From the NCBI GenBank assembly GCA_965226055.1, contig CBDDCA010000006.1, positions 258,251 through 322,250 on the forward strand: a stretch of DNA of 64,000 bases. The letters are read 5' to 3'. Made by a program: the position numbers and the translations under genes. A model generated the notes under the pieces. That model saw only the letters and a program-made list of their open reading frames with translations. It ran no database searches and was not told the DNA's origin. The stretch comes from Spirochaetia bacterium (lineage in GTDB: Bacteria; Spirochaetota; Spirochaetia; WTKD01; G963693115). The stretch's first letter is position 1. Each line of letters starts with the position of its first letter. Below are positions 10,605-52,016 of this stretch, one piece after another.

Positions 10605-13600
10605 CTAGCGACAATTCCCCGCTGGAAGACACCATCCAGGCAAGTTTTTTACAGCTGTACCCTTAAACATATCTGTTTTTATCACACTGTTTGCTACATT
10701 CCAGTTACTCAAATTCTGATTAAAAACACTAGCATCAGCAAACATACTGCTCATATCGGTAACATTACTTACATTCCAATTCCCTATATCTTGATTAAAA
10801 ACATCAGCATCATAAAACATATACCTCATATTGGCAACATTACTTACATTCCAATTCCCTATATCCTGATTAAAAGCTTCAGCATCATAAAACATACTGT
10901 TCATATTGGTAACTTTACCTACATTCCATTTTGATATATCTCCATTGAAAAATTCTGTTTGATTAAACATATTGCTCATATCGGTAACTTTACTTACATT
11001 CCATAACGATACATCTCCATTAAAGTATTGTTTATCATAAAATAGCCCTCCCATGTCTGTTATGTTACTTGTATCTATCATGTTTAAGTTAGGGGCAAAT
11101 CCTTGTGCTTTTATCTCTGCTTCTATGGCTTCCTCTAACTTTTTTTTGTTTTGAGGAGTGTACTTGTATTCTATCGTAACTGATATTGTTTTTGATCTAC
11201 TGGCATCAGTATATGTATGTATTGCTTTCCCATCGCTCTTTTTACTGGTAAACTCTATAGTATAGGTCTTTGAAGCTGCTTTGGTAGGAGTACCTGATAT
11301 CTTCCCAGTATCAGCATCAAAGCTCAACCCTGTATCTGCTGTTATATCCGGACTTATACTAAAAATTCCTGCTATAGCGGGTGTTTTAGTAAGTGTTACT
11401 TCTTTATCTTTCGTTAATGGTACTCCTACATATGCCTTTACACTACCTCCTATACTAGCTCTACTTGCACTTATATTAAAATACCATGTAGGGAGTATTA
11501 CTACAGCTGTATGCTCAAACATATTTGTTTTACTCACAGTTTTATCCACATTCCATGTTTCAAGTTCTTTATTAAATACACTTGCTCCCTTAAACATATT
11601 GCTCATATCGGTAACTTTACTGACATTCCACCCTGTTATATCTTGATTAAACTTACTTGCATTAATAAACATACTACGCATATCGGTAACTTTACTGACA
11701 TTCCACCCTGTTATATCTTGATTAAACTCACTTGCCTTAAAAAACATACTGCTCATATTGGTAACGCTACTGACATTCCATCTTGATATATTTCCATTAA
11801 AATTAACTTCACTGGAAAATAGACTACTCATATCTTTTATTTTACTTGTATCTATCATAGTGAGATCGGGGGTATTTCCTTGTACAGTTATCTCTGTATT
11901 TATAGCCTGCTGTAATTCTGCTTTATTATTAGGAATATGCTTATACTCTTTAATAGTAACTAACACTTTTATAGTCCGCCTATCATCAATATATTTATGT
12001 ATGAGTGTTTTATCAGCCTCTTCACTTCTAAACTGTATGGTATACTCAGTCTGTGAAGTTACTGTGGTGGGAGTACCTGATATTATGCCAGTACTAGTAT
12101 CAAAGTTCAACCCTGTATTTGTTGTTATATTTGGACTTATACTAAAACTCCCTGTTATAACGGGCGTTTTGGTAAGTATTATTTTTTGACTGTCTAGGAG
12201 TGATAAATCTCTATAGACACTTATAGTAGTACTATTTGCACTTATACTAAAATACCATGTAGGCAACTTTTTTACTGCTGAAGCAAGAAACATATCTGTT
12301 TTTGTCACACCGCTATCTACATTCCAACTTTCAAGATCTTGGTTAAATGCATTTGCGTTATTAAACATAAAAAACATATTCGTAACACTACTGACATTCC
12401 AATTTGATATATCCCCATTAAATTTTTGTGCTCCTGCAAATATACTGCTCATATTGGTAACTTTACTTACATCCCATTTCGATACATTTCCATTAAAATG
12501 ATCTTTACTGGAAAATATATTACTCATATCTGTTATAGCACTCGTATCTATTATGTTTAGATTAGCGGTATTTCCTTGTGCATTTATCTCATCATCTACA
12601 GCCTTCTGTAATTCTGTTTTATCACTGGGCGTATACTTATACTGACTTATAGTTACATGTATCTCTATTGTCCGATCAGTATATGTATGTATTGTTTTCC
12701 CATTCTTTTCACTGGTAAACTGTATAGTATACTTAGTTTGTGAAGCTAATATAGTGGGAGTACCCGATATTGAGCCAGTGTTAGTATCAAAGTTCAACCC
12801 TGTATTTGTTGTTATATTTGGACTTATACTAAAACTCCCTGTTACATTAGACGTTTTAGTGAGTGTTATTGTTTCAGTGTTACTTAGCGATAAATCTTTG
12901 TATCCAGTTATAGTAGTTCTGTTTGCATTTATACTAAAATACCATGTAGGCAACTTCTTTACTACTGTACTTTCAAACATATTTGTTTTTATTACACTGC
13001 TTTTTACATTCCAGTTTTCCAGATTTGCACTAAACTTTGATGCAAAATTGAACATAGTTTCCATATTTGTAACTTTACTTACAGTCCAATTTTTTATATC
13101 TTGGTTAAAGCTTTGTGCAGATAGAAACATAGCTCTCATATTTATAACTTTACTTACAGTCCAATTTTTTATATCTTGGTTAAAGGCATGTGCTCCAGCA
13201 AATAAACTCTCCATATTTGTAACAGCACTTACATTCCATCCTGATATATCTCCATTAAATTTATTCGCATTCAAAAACATATTGCTCATATTTGTAACTT
13301 TACTTACATTCCATTTTGATATATCTCCATTGAAATTAGCTTTATCCTCAAATAGATTACTCATATCTGTTATAACACTTGTGTCTATTATGTTGAGATT
13401 AGCAGTATCTCCTTGTGCAGCTATCTCATCATCTACAGCTTTCTGTAACTCTGTTTTATTACTAGGAGTATGCTTATAACTTGTGGTAACTGATATTTTT
13501 ATTGTTCTATCAGTATATTTATGTGTCGCTGGATTACCTTTACTATCAGTAAAGCTACTGGTAAACTCTATAGTATAATCAGTCTTTGAAGCTGCTTTAG

Positions 13601-16600
13601 TAGGAGTTCCTGATATTGTGCCAGTGCTAGTATTAAAATCTAACCCTGTATTTACTGTTATATCTGGACTTATACTAAAACTTCCTGTTATATCAGGCGT
13701 TTTGGTAAAAGTTATTTCTTTATTTTTTGCAAGTGGAACATTTACATATGTATTTATACTACGATTACTTGCACTTATATTAAAATACCATGTAGGCAAC
13801 TTTGCTACTGCGGTATTCTTAAACATATCTGTTTTTGTCACACCACTTGCTACATTCCAGCTTTCAAGATCTTTTTCAAATGCATTTGCTCCACTGAGCA
13901 TACTACTCATATTGGTGACAGCATTTACATCCCATTCGGATATATCTCCATTGAAAGTAATATTATCCTTAAATAGATCACTCATATCTGTTATTTTACT
14001 TGTATCTATTATGTTGAGATTAGCTTCGTTTCCTTGTACATTTATCTCTGTAGTTATAGCTTGCTTTAATTCTGTTTTATTATTAGGAGTATGCTTATAC
14101 CTACGTATCTCTACCGATATTTTTATTGTCCTATCAGTATCAATATATTTATGTATTACTGTTCCATCTGTCTTTTTACTTGTAAACTGTATGGTATATT
14201 CAGTCTTTGAGATTGCTGTAAGAGGAGTACCCGATATTTTACCAGTGCTAGGATCAAAATCTAAACCTGTATTTTTTGCTATATCTGGACTAACGCTAAA
14301 ACTTCCTGTTATATTAGGTGTTTTGGTAAGGGTTATTTCTTTATCTGTTGCTAATGGTATGTTTTTATATGCAATTATCTTATTATCACTTGCACTTATG
14401 CTAAAATACCATGTAGGCAACTTTGCTACTGCGGTATTCTTAAATATATCTGTTTTTGTCACAGTCCCATCGCTTGCTACATTCCAATCTTCCAGATCTT
14501 GGTTAAATTTTGTCGCTCCCAAGAACATCTTGCCTATATCGGTAACGCTACTTATATTCCAGCTTGATATATCTTGATTAAACGCTGCCGCTGACGAAAA
14601 CATCTGATGCATATTCGTAACTTTTCCTACCTTCCAATTTGATATATCTTTATTAAAAATGGTTGCTCCCGAAAACATAGCTGTCATATTTGTAACTTTT
14701 CTTACATCCCAGCCCGACATATTGCTATTAAAATTTGCTGCTCCTAAAAACATTCGATTCATATCCGTAACTGCCCCTACATTCCACCCCGATATATCTT
14801 TATTGAAACTGGTTGCTCCCGAAAACATATTCCCCATATCATTCACATTTTGTACCTTCCAATTTGATATATCTTGATTAAAACTTGTCGCATTCCAAAA
14901 CATACCATTCATGTTAGTAACACTTTGTACCTTCCAGTTTGATATATCTTGATTAAAACTACCTGCATAATAAAACATACTGCTCATATCAATAACATTA
15001 CTTACATTCCAACCAGAAATATCCCCATTAAATGCAGCAGCTTGATTAAACATATGACTCATATCAGTAACATTACTTACATCCCACTCAGATATTTTAC
15101 CATTAAAAGTAGTATTACTATTAAATAATCCACTCATATCATCAATCTTACTAGTATCAATTATATTTAAGTCAGCAGTATTTCCTTGTAATCCTATCTC
15201 AGTATTTATATTGTTTATTAATTCTAATTTACCAGTAGGAGTATACTTATGCCCTATAGTAACTGTTATCGTTATTGTCCTATCAGTATAGGCATATATT
15301 GTTTTCCCATTCTTTTCACTGGTAAACTGTATGGTGTAAGGAGTTTTTGAAGCTACCTTTGTAGGAGTACCCGATATTGTCCCAGAGCTAGAATCAAAAC
15401 TCAAGCCTGTATTTGTTGTGATACTTGGACTTATACTAAAACTTCCTGCTATACTAGGTGTTTTGGTAACTTTTATTTCTTCACTTGCTCCTAATTTTAT
15501 ACGTGCTTGCCCTGTCAGAGCAGACTTATTTGCACTTATACTAAAATACCATGTAGGTAACTTTGCTACTGCGGTATTCTTAAACATATCTGTTTTTGTC
15601 ACAGTCCCATCGCTTGCCACCTTCCAGCTTTCAAGATCTTTGTCAAATGCACTTGCTCCTAAAAACATGCTACTCATATCAGCAACCTTGCTTACATTCC
15701 ATCCCGATACATTTTGATTGAAACTTGTTGCTCCTGAAAACATATTACTCATATCGGTAACGCTACTTACATCCCATCCCGATATATCTCCATTGAAATT
15801 AGCTTTATTCTCAAATATATTACTCATATCTGTTATATTACTTGTATTTATTATGTTTAAGTTAGCAGTATTTCCTTGTACTTCTATCTCCTTTTTTATG
15901 TTTTCCAATAACTCTGTTTTGTTGTTAGGAGTATAAAGATAAGTATTTATTGCTACTGATAGAGTGATGGATCTAGTATCGACATAAGTATATGTCGCTG
16001 GATTACCTGAGCTATCAGTAAAGCTACTGGTAAACTGTATGGTGTAAGAAGTTTGTGAAGCTGCCTCGGTAGGAGTACCCGATATTGTGCCAGTTCTAGT
16101 ATCAAAATCTAACCCTGTATTTGCTTTGATATCTGGACTTATACTGAAACTTCCTGCTATAAGGGGTGTCCTTGTCAGTATTATATCTGTTATTGGTACT
16201 TTTACTCCCTCATGTATACTATTGCTGCTTGCGCTTATACTAAAATACCATGTAGGTAATTTTGCTACTGCAGTATTCGTAAACATATTTGTTTTTGTCT
16301 TAAGGCTTGCTATATTCCAGTTTTCAATATCTCCATTAAATTTTATCGCCCCACTCAACATATTTTCCATATCAGTGACTTTACTTACATTCCACTCGGA
16401 TATATTTCCATTGAAAGTAGTGTTATCCTTAAATAGATCACTCATATCTGTTATGTTACTTGTATCTATTATGTTGAGATTAGCAGTATTTCCTTGTGCA
16501 TTTATCTCTGTAGTTATAGCTTGCTTTAATTCTGCTATATTATTGGGAGTATGCTTATATTTATGTATCTCTACTGATATTGTTATTGTTCTATCAGTAT

Positions 16601-19073
16601 AGGTATGTGTTGCTAAAGCACCTGTACTACCAGTAAAGCTACTGGTAAACTGTATGGTGTAAGAAGTTTGTGAAACTGCTTTGGTAGGAGTGCCTGATAT
16701 TGTCCCAGTGCTAGTATTAAAACTCAACCCTGTATTTGCTGTTATATCTGGACTAATACTAAAATTTCCTGCTATATCAGGCGTTTTGCTAAGGGTTATT
16801 TCTTCATTTTTTGCTAGCGGTATTCCTCTATATACATCTATACTAGCACTATTTGACTTTATGCTAAAATACCATGTAGGTAATTTTGCTACTGCGGTAT
16901 TCTTAAATATATCTGTTTTTGTCACAGCGATTGCTACATTCCAGCCTTCAAGATCTTGTGTAAACTTAGAAGCACCAGAAAACATGCTACTCATATTGGT
17001 AACCTTGCTTACATTCCATCCCGACACATTTTGATTGAAACTTGTTGCTCCTAAAAACATACTGCTCATATCGGCAACTTTACTTACATTCCATCCCGAT
17101 ACATTTTGATTGAAACTTGTTGCTCCTAAAAACATACTGCTCATATCGGTAACTTTACTTACATTCCATTTCGATATGTCTCCATTAAAACTTGTTGCTC
17201 CTGAAAACATACTGCTCATATCGGTAACTTTACTTACATTCCATTTCGATATATCTCCATTGAAAGTAGTGTTATCCTTAAATAGCCTACTCATATCTGT
17301 TATAAGACTCGTATTTATTATGTTTAGATTAGCAGTATTTCCTTGCAATCCTACCTCTGTTTTTATAGCTTCCAATAATTCTGCTTTATTTTTTGGCTTA
17401 TACTCTATAGTGAGCAATATTTCTATTGTCCTATCAGTATCAGTATAGGTATGTATTTCTGTCCTATCAGAGGAGGTACTTGTAAATGTTATAATATACT
17501 CAGTCTCTGAGGCTACCTTTGTAGGAGTACCTGATATTGTGCCAGTACTAGTATCAAAACTCAACCCTATACTCGTTATATCTGGCTTTATACCAAATTT
17601 TCCTGTTATATCAGGCGTTTTGCTAAGAGTTATTTTTTCATTATCTGCTAGTGATACCCCTTTATATACAGTGAGCTCATCAACATTAGCACTTATGCTA
17701 AAATACCATGTAGGCAATTTTGCTACTGCGGTATTTGTAAACATATCTTTTTTTGTCACAGTGCTTGCTACATTCCAGCCTTCAAGATCTTTATCAAATG
17801 CACTTGCTCCTGAAAACATACCATCCATATCTGTAATATTACTTACCTTCCACTTTGATATGTCTCCATTGAAACTTGTTGCTCCTGCAAACATATTACT
17901 CATATCGGTAACATTGCTTACATCCCACAATGATATATCTCTATTAAAGGTAGTGTCATCCTTAAATAGATCATGCATATCTTTTACAGCACTTGTATTT
18001 ATATAGTTAAAATTATCTACATCAGTATTTTTAATTGCTTCTATTAATTCGTTACGTGTTTTTACTATAGCAGTAAACACCGATACATATATAGAGAACT
18101 GGCTAGACTTTCCTAAGTAACTTCCATCCCCTGTAAAACGAATTGTATATTTTCTTCGTATACCATTTTCTTTATCCTTCAATAACCTTATTGCAGTGCC
18201 ATATATTTCTCCATTATTGTCCTTCATCTCCAATCCTGTATCTTCCGTAAGAGTTGTCGTTTTTCCATCAGTACTATTAAATTCAATACTCCATGTACCA
18301 GTAATTCCTGGAGGGCTTGTTGCAATATTGATTGGCATTAAAGGAACATTCAAGCTCGACTTGATTAACTGTTCATTATCATACCTATCTGTGATAGAGT
18401 TTCCATCACGCACAAGAGTAAATACATAATGCCAACTAGGAATACTTGTTGCAGGTACATTAGCTCCCTTAAATATATCTTGTATATTTACTGAATCTGC
18501 TACCTGCCATTTCTCTAAATCATACTGAAACACTGTTGCTTTATTAAACATGTTACTCATATCGGTAACCTTGCTCACATTCCAGCCTGATATATCTTGA
18601 TTAAAACTTGCTGCGGCTTCAAACATGTTACTCATATCGGTAACCTTGCTCACATTCCAGCCTGATATATTTTGATTAAAACTCGTTGCTCCCTTAAACA
18701 GATTACTCATATTAGTAACATTACTTACATTCCAGCCTGATATATTTCCATTAAAGGTAGTATTTCCTTCAAACATACTGCTCATATCAGTAATATTGCT
18801 TACATCCCAACTTGATATATCACCTGAAAAATTGGAAAATTCACCATCACCTTTGAATAAGCCGCTTATATCTTTTACTTTACTTGTATCTATAGTAGAG
18901 AGATCTGCTGCATTTCCGCGGGAGGCAATTTCTCGCTTAATGTTTTCAATAAGCGATTCTCTACTATCAGGAGAGTAAATAAAGTCTAAACTTAAAGATT
19001 TTTCTGGATCACAACCAGATACCAAAAAAGCGAAACATAAAAATAGCCAAAATATAAAAAATTGATACTTCAT
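10605..19073 (-). CDS. Giant modular surface lipoprotein (2822 aa) of reiterated DUF285-repeat and Ig-like (He_PIG-like) modules
   Basis: Signal peptide with lipobox LVSGC. About 8 modules of ~330 aa, each built from several DISxWNVSxVTxMSxMF repeats, then AVAKLPTWYFSI, then GLSFDTSTGTISGTPT. Confidence 0.85.
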   Translation of the reverse strand: MKYQFFIFWLFLCFAFLVSGCDPEKSLSLDFIYSPDSRESLIENIKREIASRGNAADLSTIDTSKVKDISGLFKGDGEFSNFSGDISSWDVSNITDMSSMFEGNTTFNGNISGWNVSNVTNMSNLFKGATSFNQNISGWNVSKVTDMSNMFEAAASFNQDISGWNVSKVTDMSNMFNKATVFQYDLEKWQVADSVNIQDIFKGANVPATSIPSWHYVFTLVRDGNSITDRYDNEQLIKSSLNVPLMPINIATSPPGITGTWSIEFNSTDGKTTTLTEDTGLEMKDNNGEIYGTAIRLLKDKENGIRRKYTIRFTGDGSYLGKSSQFSIYVSVFTAIVKTRNELIEAIKNTDVDNFNYINTSAVKDMHDLFKDDTTFNRDISLWDVSNVTDMSNMFAGATSFNGDISKWKVSNITDMDGMFSGASAFDKDLEGWNVASTVTKKDMFTNTAVAKLPTWYFSISANVDELTVYKGVSLADNEKITLSKTPDITGKFGIKPDITSIGLSFDTSTGTISGTPTKVASETEYIITFTSTSSDRTEIHTYTDTDRTIEILLTIEYKPKNKAELLEAIKTEVGLQGNTANLNIINTSLITDMSRLFKDNTTFNGDISKWNVSKVTDMSSMFSGATSFNGDISKWNVSKVTDMSSMFLGATSFNQNVSGWNVSKVADMSSMFLGATSFNQNVSGWNVSKVTNMSSMFSGASKFTQDLEGWNVAIAVTKTDIFKNTAVAKLPTWYFSIKSNSASIDVYRGIPLAKNEEITLSKTPDIAGNFSISPDITANTGLSFNTSTGTISGTPTKAVSQTSYTIQFTSSFTGSTGALATHTYTDRTITISVEIHKYKHTPNNIAELKQAITTEINAQGNTANLNIIDTSNITDMSDLFKDNTTFNGNISEWNVSKVTDMENMLSGAIKFNGDIENWNIASLKTKTNMFTNTAVAKLPTWYFSISASSNSIHEGVKVPITDIILTRTPLIAGSFSISPDIKANTGLDFDTRTGTISGTPTEAASQTSYTIQFTSSFTDSSGNPATYTYVDTRSITLSVAINTYLYTPNNKTELLENIKKEIEVQGNTANLNIINTSNITDMSNIFENKANFNGDISGWDVSSVTDMSNMFSGATSFNQNVSGWNVSKVADMSSMFLGASAFDKDLESWKVASDGTVTKTDMFKNTAVAKLPTWYFSISANKSALTGQARIKLGASEEIKVTKTPSIAGSFSISPSITTNTGLSFDSSSGTISGTPTKVASKTPYTIQFTSEKNGKTIYAYTDRTITITVTIGHKYTPTGKLELINNINTEIGLQGNTADLNIIDTSKIDDMSGLFNSNTTFNGKISEWDVSNVTDMSHMFNQAAAFNGDISGWNVSNVIDMSSMFYYAGSFNQDISNWKVQSVTNMNGMFWNATSFNQDISNWKVQNVNDMGNMFSGATSFNKDISGWNVGAVTDMNRMFLGAANFNSNMSGWDVRKVTNMTAMFSGATIFNKDISNWKVGKVTNMHQMFSSAAAFNQDISSWNISSVTDIGKMFLGATKFNQDLEDWNVASDGTVTKTDIFKNTAVAKLPTWYFSISASDNKIIAYKNIPLATDKEITLTKTPNITGSFSVSPDIAKNTGLDFDPSTGKISGTPLTAISKTEYTIQFTSKKTDGTVIHKYIDTDRTIKISVEIRRYKHTPNNKTELKQAITTEINVQGNEANLNIIDTSKITDMSDLFKDNITFNGDISEWDVNAVTNMSSMLSGANAFEKDLESWNVASGVTKTDMFKNTAVAKLPTWYFNISASNRSINTYVNVPLAKNKEITFTKTPDITGSFSISPDITVNTGLDFNTSTGTISGTPTKAASKTDYTIEFTSSFTDSKGNPATHKYTDRTIKISVTTSYKHTPSNKTELQKAVDDEIAAQGDTANLNIIDTSVITDMSNLFEDKANFNGDISKWNVSKVTNMSNMFLNANKFNGDISGWNVSAVTNMESLFAGAHAFNQDIKNWTVSKVINMRAMFLSAQSFNQDIKNWTVSKVTNMETMFNFASKFSANLENWNVKSSVIKTNMFESTVVKKLPTWYFSINANRTTITGYKDLSLSNTETITLTKTSNVTGSFSISPNITTNTGLNFDTNTGSISGTPTILASQTKYTIQFTSEKNGKTIHTYTDRTIEIHVTISQYKYTPSDKTELQKAVDDEINAQGNTANLNIIDTSAITDMSNIFSSKDHFNGNVSKWDVSKVTNMSSIFAGAQKFNGDISNWNVSSVTNMFFMFNNANAFNQDLESWNVDSGVTKTDMFLASAVKKLPTWYFSISANSTTISVYRDLSLLDSQKIILTKTPVITGSFSISPNITTNTGLNFDTSTGIISGTPTTVTSQTEYTIQFRSEEADKTLIHKYIDDRRTIKVLVTIKEYKHIPNNKAELQQAINTEITVQGNTPDLTMIDTSKIKDMSSLFSSEVNFNGNISRWNVSSVTNMSSMFFKASEFNQDITGWNVSKVTDMRSMFINASKFNQDITGWNVSKVTDMSNMFKGASVFNKELETWNVDKTVSKTNMFEHTAVVILPTWYFNISASRASIGGSVKAYVGVPLTKDKEVTLTKTPAIAGIFSISPDITADTGLSFDADTGKISGTPTKAASKTYTIEFTSKKSDGKAIHTYTDASRSKTISVTIEYKYTPQNKKKLEEAIEAEIKAQGFAPNLNMIDTSNITDMGGLFYDKQYFNGDVSLWNVSKVTDMSNMFNQTEFFNGDISKWNVGKVTNMNSMFYDAEAFNQDIGNWNVSNVANMRYMFYDADVFNQDIGNWNVSNVTDMSSMFADASVFNQNLSNWNVANSVIKTDMFKGTAVKNLPGWCLPAGNCR

Positions 19074-49663: not shown

Positions 49664-49835
49664 ATGATAGAAATCCTCCTAGTCAATAGAGTTAATATTG
49701 TGTAATGATCAACTATTTATTTAAACTTTACTCCAGTATACAAATATACTAAACACTATGCAAGAGTTACGGGGAATAATTTTTGGGGAAATTAGAGGGT
49801 ACATTAGATAGTAGAACCATAAGTTTGTACTGTTT

Positions 49836-50699
49836 TTAATGAGAGATACTATTAACTTTTAAACTATCTTTGAAAAATAATATTTCTTTTCCATTCTTAG
49901 TTTTATTAGCAAAATGTTTTAGAATAAAAGGTTTTCTATTTTTTACCCAAGAAAAATTTTCATTTATTTCCTCTTTATCATCATAAGAAACAATCCAAGA
50001 AAATTTTTTAATATTTTTAATTTTTTCACTTAAGATTTTATGCTGATCTTGTTTATAAAAGTTTAAGTATAAATCTTTTCCTTTATTAAAATAGGGAGGA
50101 TCAAAATAAAATATTGTCTGCTTATTTTTTTCTTCTTTTTGAATTTTATCAATTAGTTCTAAAACATCTAGATTATGCAGAGTTATTTGTTCTTTATACC
50201 TTGCTATTAATTTGATTTTTTTTATTATTGTATCTTTATTGAATCTACAATTTAATTTATATTTTCCTTTTTGTTTTAAGCCTCCAATAGGACCTCCTTT
50301 TAAAATTCCTGAAAAATTTGCCCTATTTAAAAATAATGTAGAAAAGCCTACCTCTAATGATGAAAAATTTTGTATCTCTTTTTGTATTTCTTTTTGTTTT
50401 TTCCAATTTTCTATACTTATTTCTGTATCATGTATGAGTGTGCATAACTCATCAGTTTTATTCAAAACACAATACCAAAAAGAATAAATAGATTTGTCTA
50501 AATCATTTAAAGTTATTTTTTTAAATTTATTTTCTAATAAAAGATATAAACCAACTGAAGCTCCTCCACAAAAAGGCTCTACATAATGATCATTTATTTT
50601 ATTATCAGTGCAAATTTGAGAAATAAATTTTGAAAGCCTATTCTTTCCTCCTGGATATCTTAATGGTGAATAAAATTTATTTTTAATCATTTTTACCAT
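49836..50699 (-). CDS. Dam-family (D12 class, alpha) N6-adenine DNA methyltransferase
   Basis: LRYPGGK, EPFCGGASV and DPPYF motifs. Very AT-rich coding sequence. Overlaps the upstream gene by 17 bp. Confidence 0.8.
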   Translation of the reverse strand: MVKMIKNKFYSPLRYPGGKNRLSKFISQICTDNKINDHYVEPFCGGASVGLYLLLENKFKKITLNDLDKSIYSFWYCVLNKTDELCTLIHDTEISIENWKKQKEIQKEIQNFSSLEVGFSTLFLNRANFSGILKGGPIGGLKQKGKYKLNCRFNKDTIIKKIKLIARYKEQITLHNLDVLELIDKIQKEEKNKQTIFYFDPPYFNKGKDLYLNFYKQDQHKILSEKIKNIKKFSWIVSYDDKEEINENFSWVKNRKPFILKHFANKTKNGKEILFFKDSLKVNSISH

Positions 50700-51969
50700 A
50701 GTAATGCTTTAATATTTTCCCTACAATTTTAGAACACTGTAAAATATTTGTTTTATCATATTCAATATTTGCGTGAGCATATTTTGCTAATAACGATTCA
50801 AAATCAGAATTTTTTTTCAAAATGTCTGTGCCAATACTATTGAAATTTAATTCTTTTTGATCTAACATATCAGATGCTTTAATTTCTTTCATAAATTCTC
50901 CAAAAACAGCATCATCACTTGCTCGTTTATCTCCCTCATTTTCAAAATATTTTCTTCCAGCAGCCTCCATTATTAGTCTCAAAGACATACCTATAATAGG
51001 TAAGATATTTTTATCTCTTTTAAATGTTTCATAAATTTCATCTAGTATACTATACAAATCATTAACTTTTCCTTTTTTTAGTTCTAATTTTTCTCCAAAT
51101 AAAGTATCTACGATTGCTTTATCTCTAGGAGTTTTTCTTAGTTTTTTTTGTAAATTATTATCTTTTATCACATTCTTGCTACTCTGTTCTGTAAAATTTC
51201 TAATATTTAATTCTTTATCATCAATTAAAGGTTTTATTGATCCTCTATTTTTTCTTGTACTTATTTGTTTACTTTGAATCAATTGTATTAATTTTTCAAA
51301 AATTAATTGTAATTTTTCATCCTTTTCATATGAAGGATAAACACTCTCTAATTTATTATTTGAATCAAAATAAAAACCTAATTTGTAAAAATTATCTACA
51401 GTCAAAATTTCTGTTTTAATAAAATTTTGATCTAGTGCTTTATAATTCTCACTTATTAAATGTGTTGCTTCTTCAATTTTTAAAAATAAACTTTTTTCCT
51501 TTTTCAAATGATAATGATCAAAATAATCTTGTTGTAAAGCAGACCAAGTATTATTTCTTATATTATCTGCTTGTATAATTGTTAATGCTGTTTTCTCATT
51601 ACATAAAACACAAGAAATTTCTTTTAAGTTTACTAAATTTTTTGGTGGACTAGATGGAAATAATTTTTTTTCTATTACAACAGACCATTGTGGATTTTGT
51701 AAATATTTTAATACTACTATTCTTTTATTACCATCATAAACAATATGTTTTTTATTTTTAAAAACAACAATTGGTAATTTATTAAGATGATAGAAATCTC
51801 CCATTTCTTCAATTAGCTTTGGAATATTCCATTTATCTCTATCATCCTTTATGGCTTTTTTTATTATTTCTAAATCTCCAATATCTTCTCCAATTGGATC
51901 TCTTGGATTTTCAGTCCATAAATGTAATTCCGATATTTTTATCTCTTTGATTTTTTGATCATCACCCAT
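50683..51969 (-). CDS. ParB/Srx-superfamily (DGQHR/DUF262-like) nuclease-domain protein with an uncharacterised ~300-aa C-terminal region
   Basis: N-terminal ISELHLWTENPRDP (ParB NPR box) and VYDGNKRIVVL (a DG..R motif). AT-rich and translationally coupled to the methyltransferase. Confidence 0.55.
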   Translation of the reverse strand: MGDDQKIKEIKISELHLWTENPRDPIGEDIGDLEIIKKAIKDDRDKWNIPKLIEEMGDFYHLNKLPIVVFKNKKHIVYDGNKRIVVLKYLQNPQWSVVIEKKLFPSSPPKNLVNLKEISCVLCNEKTALTIIQADNIRNNTWSALQQDYFDHYHLKKEKSLFLKIEEATHLISENYKALDQNFIKTEILTVDNFYKLGFYFDSNNKLESVYPSYEKDEKLQLIFEKLIQLIQSKQISTRKNRGSIKPLIDDKELNIRNFTEQSSKNVIKDNNLQKKLRKTPRDKAIVDTLFGEKLELKKGKVNDLYSILDEIYETFKRDKNILPIIGMSLRLIMEAAGRKYFENEGDKRASDDAVFGEFMKEIKASDMLDQKELNFNSIGTDILKKNSDFESLLAKYAHANIEYDKTNILQCSKIVGKILKHYYGKND

Positions 51970-52016
51970 ATATTTAATTCCTCCACCTCTCTTGCTTAAT
52001 CTACTTAATAAGTATA

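What the first reader, a model, noticed from the sequence alone, without database searches (positions are those of the whole stretch)
49836..51969. AT-rich two-gene island: a ParB/DGQHR-like nuclease-domain protein translationally coupled to a Dam-family methyltransferase, a candidate restriction or defence module
The 428-aa upstream protein has a ParB/Srx-type N-terminus (SELHLWTENPRDP ... VYDGNKRIV, a DG..R box like those of DUF262/DndB/GmrS) and a ~300-aa C-terminal region with no recognisable motif. It overlaps a D12-class adenine methyltransferase by 17 bp. The pair is conspicuously more AT-rich than the flanking ABC-transporter and rnz genes, which suggests horizontal acquisition. ParB-like domains act as the nuclease or NTPase modules of several anti-phage systems. 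A ParB-like protein paired with a Dam-family methyltransferase does not match a canonical type II R-M pair.
Basis: partly seen in the sequence, partly recalled or inferred. Interest (0 to 1): 0.7.

Follow-up and report, generated by a model that had tools for sequence, protein, structure and literature searches.

The report
Divergent PD-λ-5 phage-defence gene pair
This AT-rich two-gene insert (a ParB-fold/HEPN-like protein plus a DNA adenine methylase) is a distant member of PD-λ-5, a family already shown to protect E. coli from phages but with no known mechanism, so the find is real but not new in kind.

Summary
Two intact minus-strand ORFs, A (50683-51969, 428 aa) and B (49836-50699, 287 aa), overlap by 17 nt (8 nt from B's second ATG). 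They lie in a 2,196-bp segment (49789-51984) with 23.3% GC against 35.1% elsewhere. B is a D12 adenine methyltransferase with intact FxGxG and DPPY motifs. It matches PADLOC PD-Lambda-5_B at 1.6e-110 and is 43% identical to an E. coli PD-λ-5-type methylase. A has no Pfam hit, but it hits 15 PD-Lambda-5_A models (E ≥ 1.6e-10). Profile-profile alignment to the E. coli prototype family gives 98.4% probability over 383 columns. Its model has a ParB-CTPase-fold N-terminus and a HEPN-like C-terminal bundle that lacks Rx4-6H but keeps an R331/H399 dyad shared with the prototype. In 84 loci from many phyla, a B-type methylase accompanies A every time. A sister genome, 97% identical in the flanks, carries a Cas12-like gene plus CRISPR array at the same site, so this is a defence hotspot.

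The parts
49789..51984 (.). Strain-specific cassette (2,196 bp) containing only genes A and B. It lies between the conserved rnz gene and the gld-like ABC-transporter operon.
   Evidence: blastn against sister genome L090: flanks are 96.7-97.3% identical, and homology stops at 51985 and resumes at 49788. GC 0.233 vs 0.351, z = -3.95. No flanking repeats beyond AT-rich chance matches.
50683..51969 (-). Gene A, 428 aa: a PD-λ-5A-like protein with a ParB-CTPase-fold N-terminus, a helical middle domain, a disordered linker and a HEPN-like C-terminus.
   Evidence: ORF. 15 PADLOC PD-Lambda-5_A models, best 1.6e-10. hhalign to the prototype family: 98.4%, E 8e-15, 383 columns. AF2 model pLDDT 85.4. 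308 homologues, no Pfam hit.
51670..51969 (-). A residues 1-100: ParB/Srx (CTPase-fold) domain with box-I-like L-W-T-E-N-P-R (17-23) and P-motif D-G-N-K-R (79-83; the family consensus is DGNRR).
51220..51669 (-). A residues ~101-250: conserved helical middle domain with invariant C120, W142 and R239 and near-invariant C123, R134 and H136. It possibly corresponds to the DNA-binding part of ParB.
   Evidence: High pLDDT and helices 125-232. Foldseek alignments to ParB/Noc span 240-280 columns. Conservation data. It aligns to the prototype's middle region in hhalign.
51085..51219 (-). A residues ~251-295: low-confidence, poorly conserved linker. The E. coli prototype's linker is about 70 aa longer.
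   Evidence: pLDDT below 50 for residues 264-285. The hhalign gap structure shows it.
50686..51084 (-). A residues 296-428: HEPN-like helical bundle with invariant Y306, R331, H399 and S413. There is no Rx4-6H motif, because Leu occupies position -5 from H399.
49836..50699 (-). Gene B, 287 aa: D12-class N6-adenine DNA methyltransferase of the PD-λ-5B clade. Motif I is FCGGAS (residues 43-48) and motif IV is DPPY (200-203).
   Evidence: PF02086 4e-18. PADLOC PDLC04018 1.6e-110, full length. 43% identical to E. coli PD-λ-5-type B (3e-81) and 44% identical to the P2-hotspot methylase. Nearest solved structure is 7m6b at 7e-12. Motif conservation.
50683..50699 (-). A/B overlap of 17 nt, or 8 nt if B starts at the ATG at 50690. 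It suggests translational coupling.
   Evidence: Sequence read directly. In 62 of 84 related loci B follows A with a gap of -23 to +62 nt, and about 38 of those overlap (start codons were chosen heuristically).
51980..51984 (-). GGAGG ribosome-binding site of A, 10 nt upstream of the ATG. It is the first sequence of the cassette after the homology break.
   Evidence: Sequence read and compared with L090.
52011..52040 (-). Promoter-like TTTACA-18-TATACT at the 3' end of rnz, in the conserved flank. It is a candidate driver of whatever cargo sits in the hotspot. Read-through from rnz is the alternative.
   Evidence: Consensus scan, 10 of 12 matches. The site count in the region is not above the shuffled expectation, so this is only a candidate. 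The sequence is conserved in L090.

Best explanation
The segment 49789-51984 is a horizontally acquired two-gene anti-phage module of the PD-λ-5 family. It sits in a strain-variable defence hotspot between rnz and a gld-like ABC-transporter operon.

Gene B is an active-looking D12 N6-adenine DNA methyltransferase that marks the host's own DNA.

Gene A is the sensor/effector. Its N-terminus has the ParB-CTPase fold with the nucleotide-binding GNRR-type P-motif. A helical, possibly DNA-binding, middle domain follows. A flexible linker then leads to a HEPN-like bundle whose conserved R331/H399 dyad (with Y306 and S413) is the likely nuclease site.

Inferred mechanism: A is held inactive on, or by, B-methylated host DNA. 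It is licensed when it meets DNA lacking the mark, or another infection cue read through the nucleotide pocket. The HEPN-like domain then cuts nucleic acid, which blocks phage replication. Translational coupling (A first, B overlapping) fixes the ratio of the two proteins.

What is shown: the ORFs, the motifs, the folds, full-length homology to the validated family, obligate A-B linkage, and acquisition at a hotspot. What is inferred: the methylation specificity, what A senses, the substrate of the HEPN-like domain, and whether the outcome is direct immunity or abortive infection.

My confidence is about 0.9 that this is a PD-λ-5-family defence module. It is about 0.4 for the specific methylation-gated effector mechanism.
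For: - PADLOC: B matches PD-Lambda-5_B at 1.6e-110 over its full length, and A matches 15 PD-Lambda-5_A models. All 48 aligned clade members hit those A models.
- An E. coli prototype-type locus was recovered (L092). Its A scores 5.1e-168 against PDLC03998. The locus spans 2,460 bp, against 2,461 bp published for PD-λ-5, and sits in a P2 prophage hotspot.
- The window's B is 43% identical to that locus's B.
- hhalign of the window clade against the prototype clade gives 98.4%, E 8e-15, over 383 columns. It aligns GNRR, R331/R402 and H399/H473.
- Linkage: a B-type methylase is present in 84 of 84 loci from Bacteroidota, Proteobacteria, Spirochaetota, Actinomycetota, CPR and DPANN archaea. A-B distance matrices correlate at r = 0.73, with 0 of 2,000 permutations reaching that value.
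- Hotspot: the sister genome has a Cas12-like gene plus an 8-repeat CRISPR array at the same site.
- Other members sit in defence or mobile contexts: inside a type I R-M island, next to MmeI and toxin-antitoxin genes, and in Tn7-like cargo.
- Experimental basis for the family: PD-λ-5 ('ParB/HEPN, methyltransferase') reduced plaquing or plaque size for 9 of 10 phages and had to be cloned in a Δmrr host, which implies active methylation (PMC9519451).
Against: - A is only about 16% identical to the prototype, and pairwise BLASTP is not significant (E 1.3). Function is therefore transferred across a long evolutionary distance.
- No phage-defence assay exists for this sub-clade.
- The HEPN-like domain lacks the defining Rx4-6H motif, so RNase activity cannot be assumed. 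I could not measure the R331-H399 distance because model coordinates are not exposed.
- The window's A has K82 where 79 of 81 relatives have R. This could weaken nucleotide binding.
- Vassallo et al. recorded no escape plaques for PD-λ-5, and stronger protection against T-even phages than against λvir or T7. That is not the behaviour of a simple 'cut unmethylated DNA' R-M system.
- No promoter or terminator of its own was found inside the cassette.
Confidence: 0.7

Rival explanations
1. Classical type II-like restriction-modification. A is a sequence-specific DNA endonuclease that uses the ParB-type domain as its nuclease. It cleaves sites left unmethylated by B, and the C-terminal bundle serves only for dimerisation or DNA recognition.
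For: The gene pair, the coupling and the strict co-inheritance look like R-M operons. ParB/Srx-fold proteins with DNA-nicking activity are known (cited in PMC12839542). Surveys file PD-λ-5 with RM-related systems.
Against: The prototype gave no escape plaques and protected best against T-even phages with hypermodified DNA (PMC9519451). The C-terminal domain carries invariant polar residues Y306, R331, H399 and S413, which are typical of a catalytic site rather than an interface. No PD-(D/E)xK, HNH, GIY-YIG or PLD nuclease signature was detected. The GNRR motif matches the NTP-binding P-motif of ParB CTPases.
Confidence: 0.15
2. Abortive-infection or addiction module in which methylation is not used for self/non-self discrimination of incoming DNA. 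A is a nucleotide-gated toxin. B either neutralises it (toxin-antitoxin-like, stabilising the island) or writes a mark whose breakdown products act as the alarm signal when phage degrade the chromosome.
For: [quoted passage not shown] It gave no escape plaques and its strongest effect was on T-even phages, which degrade host DNA. The ParB fold is a nucleotide-binding switch with versatile NTP specificity (PMC12704722). There is a precedent for a methylome-derived m6-dAMP trigger (PMC12871103). B-type methylases also pair with Abi-like ABC ATPases, with or without A.
Against: There is no direct evidence for any ligand. The published text available here does not state whether PD-λ-5 is Abi or direct immunity. 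Strong co-diversification of A's N-terminal part with B (r = 0.76) is equally expected if both read the same DNA motif.
Confidence: 0.12
3. Not a defence system. A is a ParB/DndB-like regulator or a partition/nucleoid-occlusion protein, and B is an orphan epigenetic methylase.
For: The top Foldseek hits are ParB and Noc. DndB is a ParB-like regulator of a modification operon (PMC12704722).
Against: Fold matches are marginal in E-value (2e-3) and 10-16% identical. There is no ParBc or HTH Pfam hit at E ≤ 1. There is no ParA, and no C-terminal dimerisation domain; a HEPN-like bundle with invariant R/H sits there instead. The cassette is strain-specific and is replaced by CRISPR-Cas in the sister genome. 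The homologous E. coli system protects against phage (PMC9519451).
Confidence: 0.03

Closest known systems
PD-λ-5 (Vassallo et al. 2022, Nat Microbiol; PADLOC/DefenseFinder 'PD-Lambda-5'), prototype from E. coli ECOR7. A prototype-type locus was recovered here as L092.
   Same: Same two-gene layout, with A followed by B. B is the same D12 methylase clade (43% identity; PDLC04018 at 1.6e-110). A has the same domain order, ParB fold then helical middle then linker then HEPN-like bundle. A shares the same signature residues (NPR, GNRR, the R...H dyad) and aligns over its full length by hhalign (98.4%). Both sit in mobile or defence hotspots.
   Different: A is about 16% identical and not detectable by pairwise BLASTP. 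It is 428 aa against 501 aa, because its linker is shorter. The P-motif context is DGN(R/K)R against EGNRR. None of the ~25 PADLOC A models represents this sub-clade (best E 1e-10 to 1e-17). The host is a low-GC bacterium rather than an enterobacterial P2 prophage.
Methylase + ABC-type (AAA_15/AAA_21) ATPase pairs and A+ATPase+B triads
   Same: They use the same PD-λ-5B-type methylase clade. The E. coli P2-hotspot methylase is 44% identical to B and scores 1.6e-122 against PDLC04018. 25 of 84 window-type loci also carry the ATPase.
   Different: The window has no such ATPase. The adjacent ABC ATPase belongs to the conserved transporter operon. In E. coli and C. butyricum the ATPase replaces A altogether.
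GmrSD / BrxU / DUF262-DUF1524 type IV restriction enzymes
   Same: An N-terminal ParB/Srx-superfamily nucleotide-binding domain is fused to a C-terminal nuclease-type effector, with a role in defence.
   Different: There is no PF03235 (DUF262) or DUF1524 hit. The motif is GNRR rather than DGQQR. The C-terminus is HEPN-like rather than a His-Me finger. GmrSD has no cognate methylase and attacks modified DNA.
[quoted passage not shown] 2013)
   Same: They show the same recurring combination of a ParB-superfamily domain, a HEPN domain and, for MAE_28990, a methylase in conflict systems.
   Different: The domains are on separate polypeptides. Homology to the window's proteins was not tested here.
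Canonical ParB / Noc CTP-gated DNA clamps
   Same: They share the N-terminal fold and the arginine-rich P-motif. The middle helical region may correspond to the ParB DNA-binding domain.
   Different: There is no ParA partner, no parS context, no ParBc/HTH Pfam signal and no C-terminal dimerisation domain. Asn replaces the catalytic Glu of GERR. Pairing with a methylase is obligate.
Type II R-M systems with Dam-family (D12) methylases, e.g. DpnII/MboI-type
   Same: They have a D12 adenine methylase adjacent to, and co-transcribed with, a partner that presumably depends on the methylation state.
   Different: The partner has none of the known restriction-endonuclease folds. B scores below the TIGR00571 'dam' cut-off (59 vs 114.85 bits).

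Membership tests
PD-λ-5 defence system | Component B: D12-class adenine methyltransferase matching the PD-Lambda-5_B models. | tested here: met
   PDLC04018 at 1.6e-110 over residues 8-285 of 287. 43% identity to the E. coli prototype-type B, 3e-81. FxGxG and DPPY motifs are intact.
PD-λ-5 defence system | Component A: a homologue of PD-λ-5A ('ParB/HEPN'). | tested here: met
   15 PD-Lambda-5_A models, best 1.6e-10, two of which cover residues 6-280. hhalign of A1 vs the prototype alignment A2 gives 98.4%, E 8e-15, over 383 columns spanning residues 1-401. Caveat: pairwise BLASTP to L092 A is not significant.
PD-λ-5 defence system | A and B are adjacent and co-inherited. | tested here: met
   17-nt (or 8-nt) overlap in the window. 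B is present in 84 of 84 related loci and directly downstream in 62. Mantel r = 0.73.
PD-λ-5 defence system | Confers resistance to phage. | not testable with these tools
   This has been shown only for the E. coli ECOR7 system (PMC9519451). The window's sub-clade has not been tested.
ParB/Srx (ParB-CTPase fold) superfamily | The N-terminal domain adopts the ParB/Srx fold. | tested here: met
ParB/Srx (ParB-CTPase fold) superfamily | Box II P-motif (GxxR / GERR-like) and a box I NPR-type motif. | tested here: met
   G80, N81 and R83 are invariant, and position 82 is R in 79 of 81 sequences (K in the window). E20, N21, P22 and R23 are invariant. The equivalence to GERR rests on my knowledge of ParB and on the hhalign and Foldseek matches, not on a residue-level structural superposition.
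Canonical partition ParB / Noc | ParBc + HTH + C-terminal dimerisation domain, a ParA partner, and parS/NBS sites. | tested here: not met
   No ParBc or HTH Pfam hit at E ≤ 1 in any of 48 members. The C-terminus is HEPN-like. The neighbours are rnz and an ABC-transporter operon, with no ParA.
HEPN superfamily | Four-helix up-down bundle of the HEPN type. | tested here: inconclusive
HEPN superfamily | Catalytic Rx4-6H motif. | tested here: not met
   H399 is invariant (80 of 81), but positions -5, -6 and -7 are L, L/I/V and A/G. The conserved Arg (R331, 80 of 81) lies 68 residues upstream on another helix. The prototype clade has the same arrangement, R402...H473. I therefore call the domain 'HEPN-like' and do not file it as a canonical HEPN RNase.
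GmrSD / DUF262-DUF1524 type IV restriction | DUF262 (PF03235, DGQQR) N-domain and DUF1524 His-Me-finger C-domain. | tested here: not met
   Neither Pfam family is hit at E ≤ 1. The motif is DGN(R/K)R. One UniRef label 'DUF262 domain-containing' on P0094 is a source annotation only.
Type II restriction-modification | A cognate restriction endonuclease of a known nuclease fold next to the methylase. | tested here: not met
   A has no hit to any Pfam or NCBIfam restriction-enzyme family. Its folds are ParB and HEPN-like.
Dam (TIGR00571) orthologues | Score above the NCBIfam trusted cut-off. | tested here: not met
   59 bits against a cut-off of 114.85. B is a D12-class enzyme but not a Dam orthologue, so GATC specificity should not be assumed.

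The most novel reading that the evidence does not exclude
The methylase may not simply shield self DNA from a nuclease. In this reading, A is a nucleotide-gated switch. Its ParB-fold pocket reads an infection signal: either loading onto mark-free incoming DNA in the manner of an NTP-dependent ParB clamp, or binding methylome-derived nucleotides released when phage degrade the chromosome. That signal licenses a non-canonical HEPN-like nuclease whose active site is built from an R...H dyad on two different helices instead of Rx4-6H. This would be a new sensing logic for R-M-like immunity and a new catalytic variant of the HEPN fold. It would be shared by a family that reaches CPR bacteria and DPANN archaea.
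Probability: 0.15. Interest if true: 0.75.

Novelty: new member of a known kind. Interest (0 to 1): 0.35.

Why it matters
PD-λ-5 gave one of the broadest protection profiles in the Vassallo et al. screen, yet I found no mechanistic study of it.

This window adds a compact 428-aa 'short form' of component A that is very distant in sequence and has no dedicated PADLOC model. Comparing the two clades reduces the family to a small invariant core: NPR, GNRR, and one Arg plus one His in the C-terminal bundle. These are direct targets for mutagenesis.

The work also shows three further points:
- The PD-λ-5B methylase clade is a modular hub. It pairs with the ParB/HEPN-like protein, with an Abi-type ABC ATPase, or with both.
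- The system is spread across bacterial phyla, CPR and DPANN archaea.
- The rnz/ABC-operon interval in this organism is a defence hotspot that swaps this cassette for a miniature type V CRISPR-Cas locus.

For genome annotation, the practical gain is that a 'hypothetical protein + DNA adenine methylase' pair can be labelled as a PD-λ-5-family defence module.

Tried and rejected
- Pfam and NCBIfam on A, and on all 48 clade members: no credible hit, not even ParBc, DUF262, DndB or any HEPN family. Sequence-profile libraries other than PADLOC do not see this protein.
- PDB sequence search with A: nothing at E ≤ 10.
- tblastn of A against 50,697 phage genomes: no match. The window-type clade is not obviously phage-borne, unlike the E. 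coli prototype.
- Exact look-ups of the window's own A and rnz proteins in the contig index returned nothing. I found the sister genome through the 90% cluster of rnz instead.
- Foldseek against AFDB50 was unavailable.
- blastn of the window's B gene against E. coli genomes found only methylase + AAA-ATPase pairs. I reached the prototype in a second step, using the E. coli methylase as the query.
- Boundary repeats, att-like sites, terminators, tRNA or other RNA genes at the cassette edges: none found. I therefore reject integron-cassette, tRNA-island and transposon explanations for this copy. Cargo exchange by recombination in the conserved flanks is the simplest reading.
- Plasmid-partition ParB or Noc: rejected (see the membership table).
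- GmrSD-type type IV enzyme: rejected (no DUF262 or DUF1524).
- I checked whether the methylase's central block is hypervariable, which would argue for diversifying specificity. It is instead the most conserved block (residues 121-165), while 76-120 and 166-195 vary. This does not settle the question of specificity, so I draw no conclusion from it.
- I did not determine the host taxon. There is no rRNA or Rfam hit in the window, and I judged a further database-wide protein search not worth its cost for a peripheral point.
Full report
**1. The observation.**
A is 50683-51969 (428 aa) and B is 49836-50699 (287 aa). They overlap by 17 nt. B also has a second in-frame ATG at 50690 that would overlap A's stop codon by 8 nt (ATGATTAA).
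The region is sharply AT-rich. GC is 0.21-0.26 across 49750-52000 against 0.35-0.40 on both sides. For the exact strain-specific segment, GC is 0.233 against 0.351 for the rest of the window. No other 2,196-bp window falls below 0.304 (z = -3.95). GC3 is 0.11-0.12 against 0.23-0.30 in the neighbouring genes.
One side holds an ABC-transporter ATPase at the head of a GldF/GldG-like operon. The other holds RNase Z (above the NCBIfam cut-offs), followed by FabV and an IS30 transposase.

**2. What the two proteins are.**
B hits Pfam MethyltransfD12 at 4e-18. It scores below the cut-off of the Dam equivalog (59 vs 114.85 bits), so it is a D12-class adenine methylase but not a Dam orthologue. Motif I (FCGGAS) and motif IV (DPPY) are intact and conserved in 84 relatives.
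A has no hit in Pfam, NCBIfam or the PDB sequence set.
The defence-system library PADLOC gives the key lead. B matches PD-Lambda-5_B (PDLC04018) at 1.6e-110 over its whole length. A matches 15 different PD-Lambda-5_A models, best 1.6e-10, mostly over residues 1-170, with two models reaching residue 280.
PD-λ-5 was discovered by functional selection in E. coli ECOR7. The authors annotated it 'ParB/HEPN, methyltransferase'. [quoted passage not shown] **3. Structure of A.**
A has 308 detectable homologues. Most are 415-460 aa, full-length, 37-48% identical and without Pfam domains.
An AlphaFold2 model built on 48 of them has mean pLDDT 85.4. The low-confidence stretches are residues 264-285 and 376-388.
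Foldseek against the PDB puts CDP/CTP-bound ParB and Noc structures on top (probability 0.98-0.99, E about 2e-3, 240-280 aligned columns).
So A consists of a ParB-CTPase fold, a helical middle domain, a flexible linker and a HEPN-like bundle. This is the architecture reported for PD-λ-5A.
Residue conservation across 81 sequences, down to ~27-30% identity, picks out these invariant positions:
- ParB part: L17, W18, E20, N21, P22, R23 and D79, G80, N81, R83.
- Middle domain: K88, C120, W142 and R239.
- C-terminal bundle: F291, Y306, R331, H399 and S413.
Two details matter. First, the window's protein is the only one with Lys at position 82, where 79 of 81 have Arg. Second, the HEPN hallmark Rx4-6H is absent. 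Positions -5 to -7 from H399 are hydrophobic or small, and the conserved Arg lies 68 residues upstream on another helix.

**4. Direct link to the validated prototype.**
I used an E. coli methylase of the same clade as a stepping stone and recovered prototype-type loci from complete E. coli genomes.
L092 (strain EC6622) lies in the P2-prophage hotspot between the replication endonuclease and the portal gene. It has a 501-aa protein scoring 5.1e-168 against PDLC03998 over its full length, followed by a 294-aa methylase. Together they span 2,460 bp, against the published 2,461 bp.
The window's B is 43% identical to that methylase (3e-81).
The window's A shows no significant pairwise similarity to the 501-aa protein (E 1.3). 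It matches a second E. coli variant only over the first 87 residues (33% identity, 1e-6).
A profile-profile comparison settles the relationship. The window clade (A1) against 32 prototype-family proteins (A2) gives 98.4% probability, E 8e-15, over 383 aligned columns. The alignment covers window residues 1-401 and prototype residues 1-475 at 16% identity.
It pairs ENPR with NPR, DGNRR with EGNRR, MSLR331L with VMLR402V, and KYAH399 with QYVH473. R402 and H473 are invariant in the prototype family. The extra length of the prototype lies mainly in the linker.
All 48 members of the window clade hit the PADLOC A models, but never better than about 1e-17. The clade is therefore a distinct sub-family without its own model. 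An exhaustive profile search of 1.84 billion representatives finds 153 clusters at E ≤ 1e-30 and 1,277 at E ≤ 1e-3.

**5. Genomic behaviour.**
I examined 84 loci encoding a window-type A. They come from Bacteroidota, Alpha-, Beta- and Gammaproteobacteria, Leptospiria and Spirochaetaceae, Fibrobacteria, Coriobacteriia, many CPR/Patescibacteria, and Pace-, Woese- and Nanoarchaeota. A relative of the window's B is present in every one. The arrangements are:
- B directly downstream on the same strand in 62 loci (gap -23 to +62 nt; about 38 overlap).
- An ABC-type AAA_15/AAA_21 ATPase between A and B in 7 loci.
- Convergent A and B in 13 loci, mostly with an ATPase-B operon.
- Some other arrangement in 2 loci.
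The ATPase is present in 25 of 84 loci. It resembles PtuA, GajA, AriA and AbiL ATPases.
Pairwise distance matrices of A and B correlate at r = 0.73, with 0 of 2,000 permutations as high. This shows co-inheritance as a unit, although shared history contributes to the value.
The same methylase clade also occurs with the ATPase alone. Examples are E. coli P2 hotspots, integrase-adjacent islets and a C. butyricum megaplasmid.
Contexts of other members include a type I R-M island, MmeI plus toxin-antitoxin genes and Tn7-like transposon cargo.

**6. Acquisition.**
The flanking genes rnz and the ABC ATPase have ≥90% identical counterparts in a second genome (a 2.36-Mb contig). A and B are singletons.
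The two genomes align at 96.7-97.3% identity up to window position 51985 and again from 49788. The variable segment is therefore 49789-51984. It begins at the GGAGG ribosome-binding site of A and ends 48 nt after B's stop codon.
In the sister genome the interval holds a 782-aa Cas12f/Cas12u-like gene and a CRISPR array of eight identical 36-nt repeats with 30-nt spacers.
I found no repeats, tRNA genes or terminators at the borders. A promoter-like TTTACA-18-TATACT sits in the conserved flank at the end of rnz. Promoter-like sites are not enriched in the region, so this is only a candidate.
The site thus behaves as a defence-cargo hotspot, probably exchanged by recombination in the conserved flanks.

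**7. Mechanism.**
Shown:
- An intact adenine methylase.
- A ParB-fold domain with the arginine P-motif that binds nucleotide triphosphate in ParB-family proteins.
- A HEPN-like bundle with an invariant Arg/His pair shared with the validated prototype.
- Obligate linkage of A and B.
Established for the family: phage protection, and in-vivo methylation inferred from the Δmrr requirement (PMC9519451).
Inferred: B marks host DNA, and A is the sensor/effector whose activity is gated by that mark. The ParB-fold module acts as the nucleotide-dependent DNA-engaging or signal-reading switch. The HEPN-like module acts as the nuclease.
I give about 0.4 to this specific model, for three reasons. The prototype produced no escape plaques. 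It worked best against T-even phages. The Rx4-6H motif is missing.
Rivals:
- A true ParB-type restriction endonuclease (0.15).
- An Abi/addiction logic in which the mark or its breakdown products serve as the signal (0.12). A methylome-derived m6-dAMP trigger has a precedent in PMC12871103, and versatile nucleotide binding by the ParB fold is documented in PMC12704722.
- A non-defence ParB/DndB-like regulator (0.03).

**8. Comparison and verdict.**
The pair passes every testable membership criterion for PD-λ-5.
It fails the criteria for canonical ParB/Noc, GmrSD, type II R-M and Dam orthology. It fails the motif criterion for canonical HEPN, so I call that domain 'HEPN-like'.
I found no mechanistic study of PD-λ-5. 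Surveys list it only as HEPN-containing and RM-related. ParB-HEPN fusions and ParB + HEPN + methylase operons were already catalogued in 2013 (PMC3710099).
It is a new, very divergent member of a known kind rather than a new kind of system.
Its value lies in three things: the minimal conserved core it defines for mutagenesis, the modular methylase hub, and the hotspot swap with CRISPR-Cas.
Interest: 0.35.

Noticed in passing
L090:7088-10125 (sister genome ena:ERZ25071788 ctg26443_14x_c), equivalent to window 49789-51984: At the same rnz/ABC-operon interval the sister genome has a 782-aa Cas12f/Cas12u-like ORF (PADLOC Cas12f 3.6e-8). It is followed by a CRISPR array of eight identical 36-nt repeats (TTTGTAGGGAGTGTTATTTTTGACCCTAACTACAAG) with 30-nt spacers, then a 147-aa DUF4468 ORF. 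No cas1 or cas2 is in the interval. This looks like a compact type V locus that may deserve its own look.
   Followed up: partly
window 54284-55857: Synteny with the sister genome also breaks upstream of fabV at 54283/54284. The window then has an AT-rich stretch (GC about 0.28), an 85-aa ORF with no Pfam hit (54474-54731) and an IS30-family transposase (54892-55857). The sister genome has dprA and polA there instead. This may be an IS-associated rearrangement or a second variable region.
   Followed up: partly
window 51723-51725 (codon 82 of gene A): The window's A has Lys at position 82 of the P-motif (DGNKR), where 79 of 81 relatives have Arg (DGNRR). The change is conservative, but it lies in the presumed nucleotide-phosphate-binding motif.
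   Followed up: partly
L087:5826-8386, L088, L089, L093:1149-3788, L094:1349-4061 (E. coli); L006:4834-7356 (C. butyricum megaplasmid): PD-λ-5B-type methylases (PDLC04018 up to 1.6e-122) occur paired only with a 525-577-aa ABC-type AAA ATPase (PtuA/GajA/AriA/AbiL-like) and no ParB/HEPN protein. They sit in P2-prophage hotspots and next to integrases. PADLOC offers no system name for this pair beyond generic ATPase hits. It may be an unnamed methylase + ATPase defence module.
   Followed up: partly
L069:1051-11835 (Undibacterium sp. Ji67W): The cargo end of a Tn7-like transposon (TnsA, Mu-type transposase, TniB, TniQ) carries a prototype-type PD-λ-5 A+B pair, a DUF6602 gene, an IS, and a window-type A (416 aa) with no adjacent methylase. 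Either two A paralogues share one methylase or the IS disrupted a second pair.
   Followed up: partly
L091:3409-5713 (E. coli 2014C-3655): A lambdoid prophage carries a PD-λ-5 variant just downstream of the antiterminator Q gene. Its methylase and a 467-aa 'ParB/Srx' protein are convergent rather than co-directional. The same convergent layout is seen in Collinsella and gut alphaproteobacterial loci.
   Followed up: no
window 56191-60906: A 1,571-aa ORF has four Fn3 repeats and C-terminal DUF285 repeats. It lies in a region of higher GC (0.43-0.47) and very strong positive AT skew (up to 0.56). It is probably a large surface protein.
   Followed up: no
window 10605-19073: A very long ORF of 2,822 aa lies on the minus strand. 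I did not examine it.
   Followed up: no
L020, L029, L046 and L015, L019, L024-L045 (DPANN archaea and CPR/Patescibacteria): A large share of window-type A+B pairs come from ultra-small episymbiotic lineages: Pace-, Woese- and Nanoarchaeota, Saccharibacteria, Wolfe-, Kaiser-, Woese- and Moraniibacteria. This suggests the compact module is favoured in reduced genomes.
   Followed up: no
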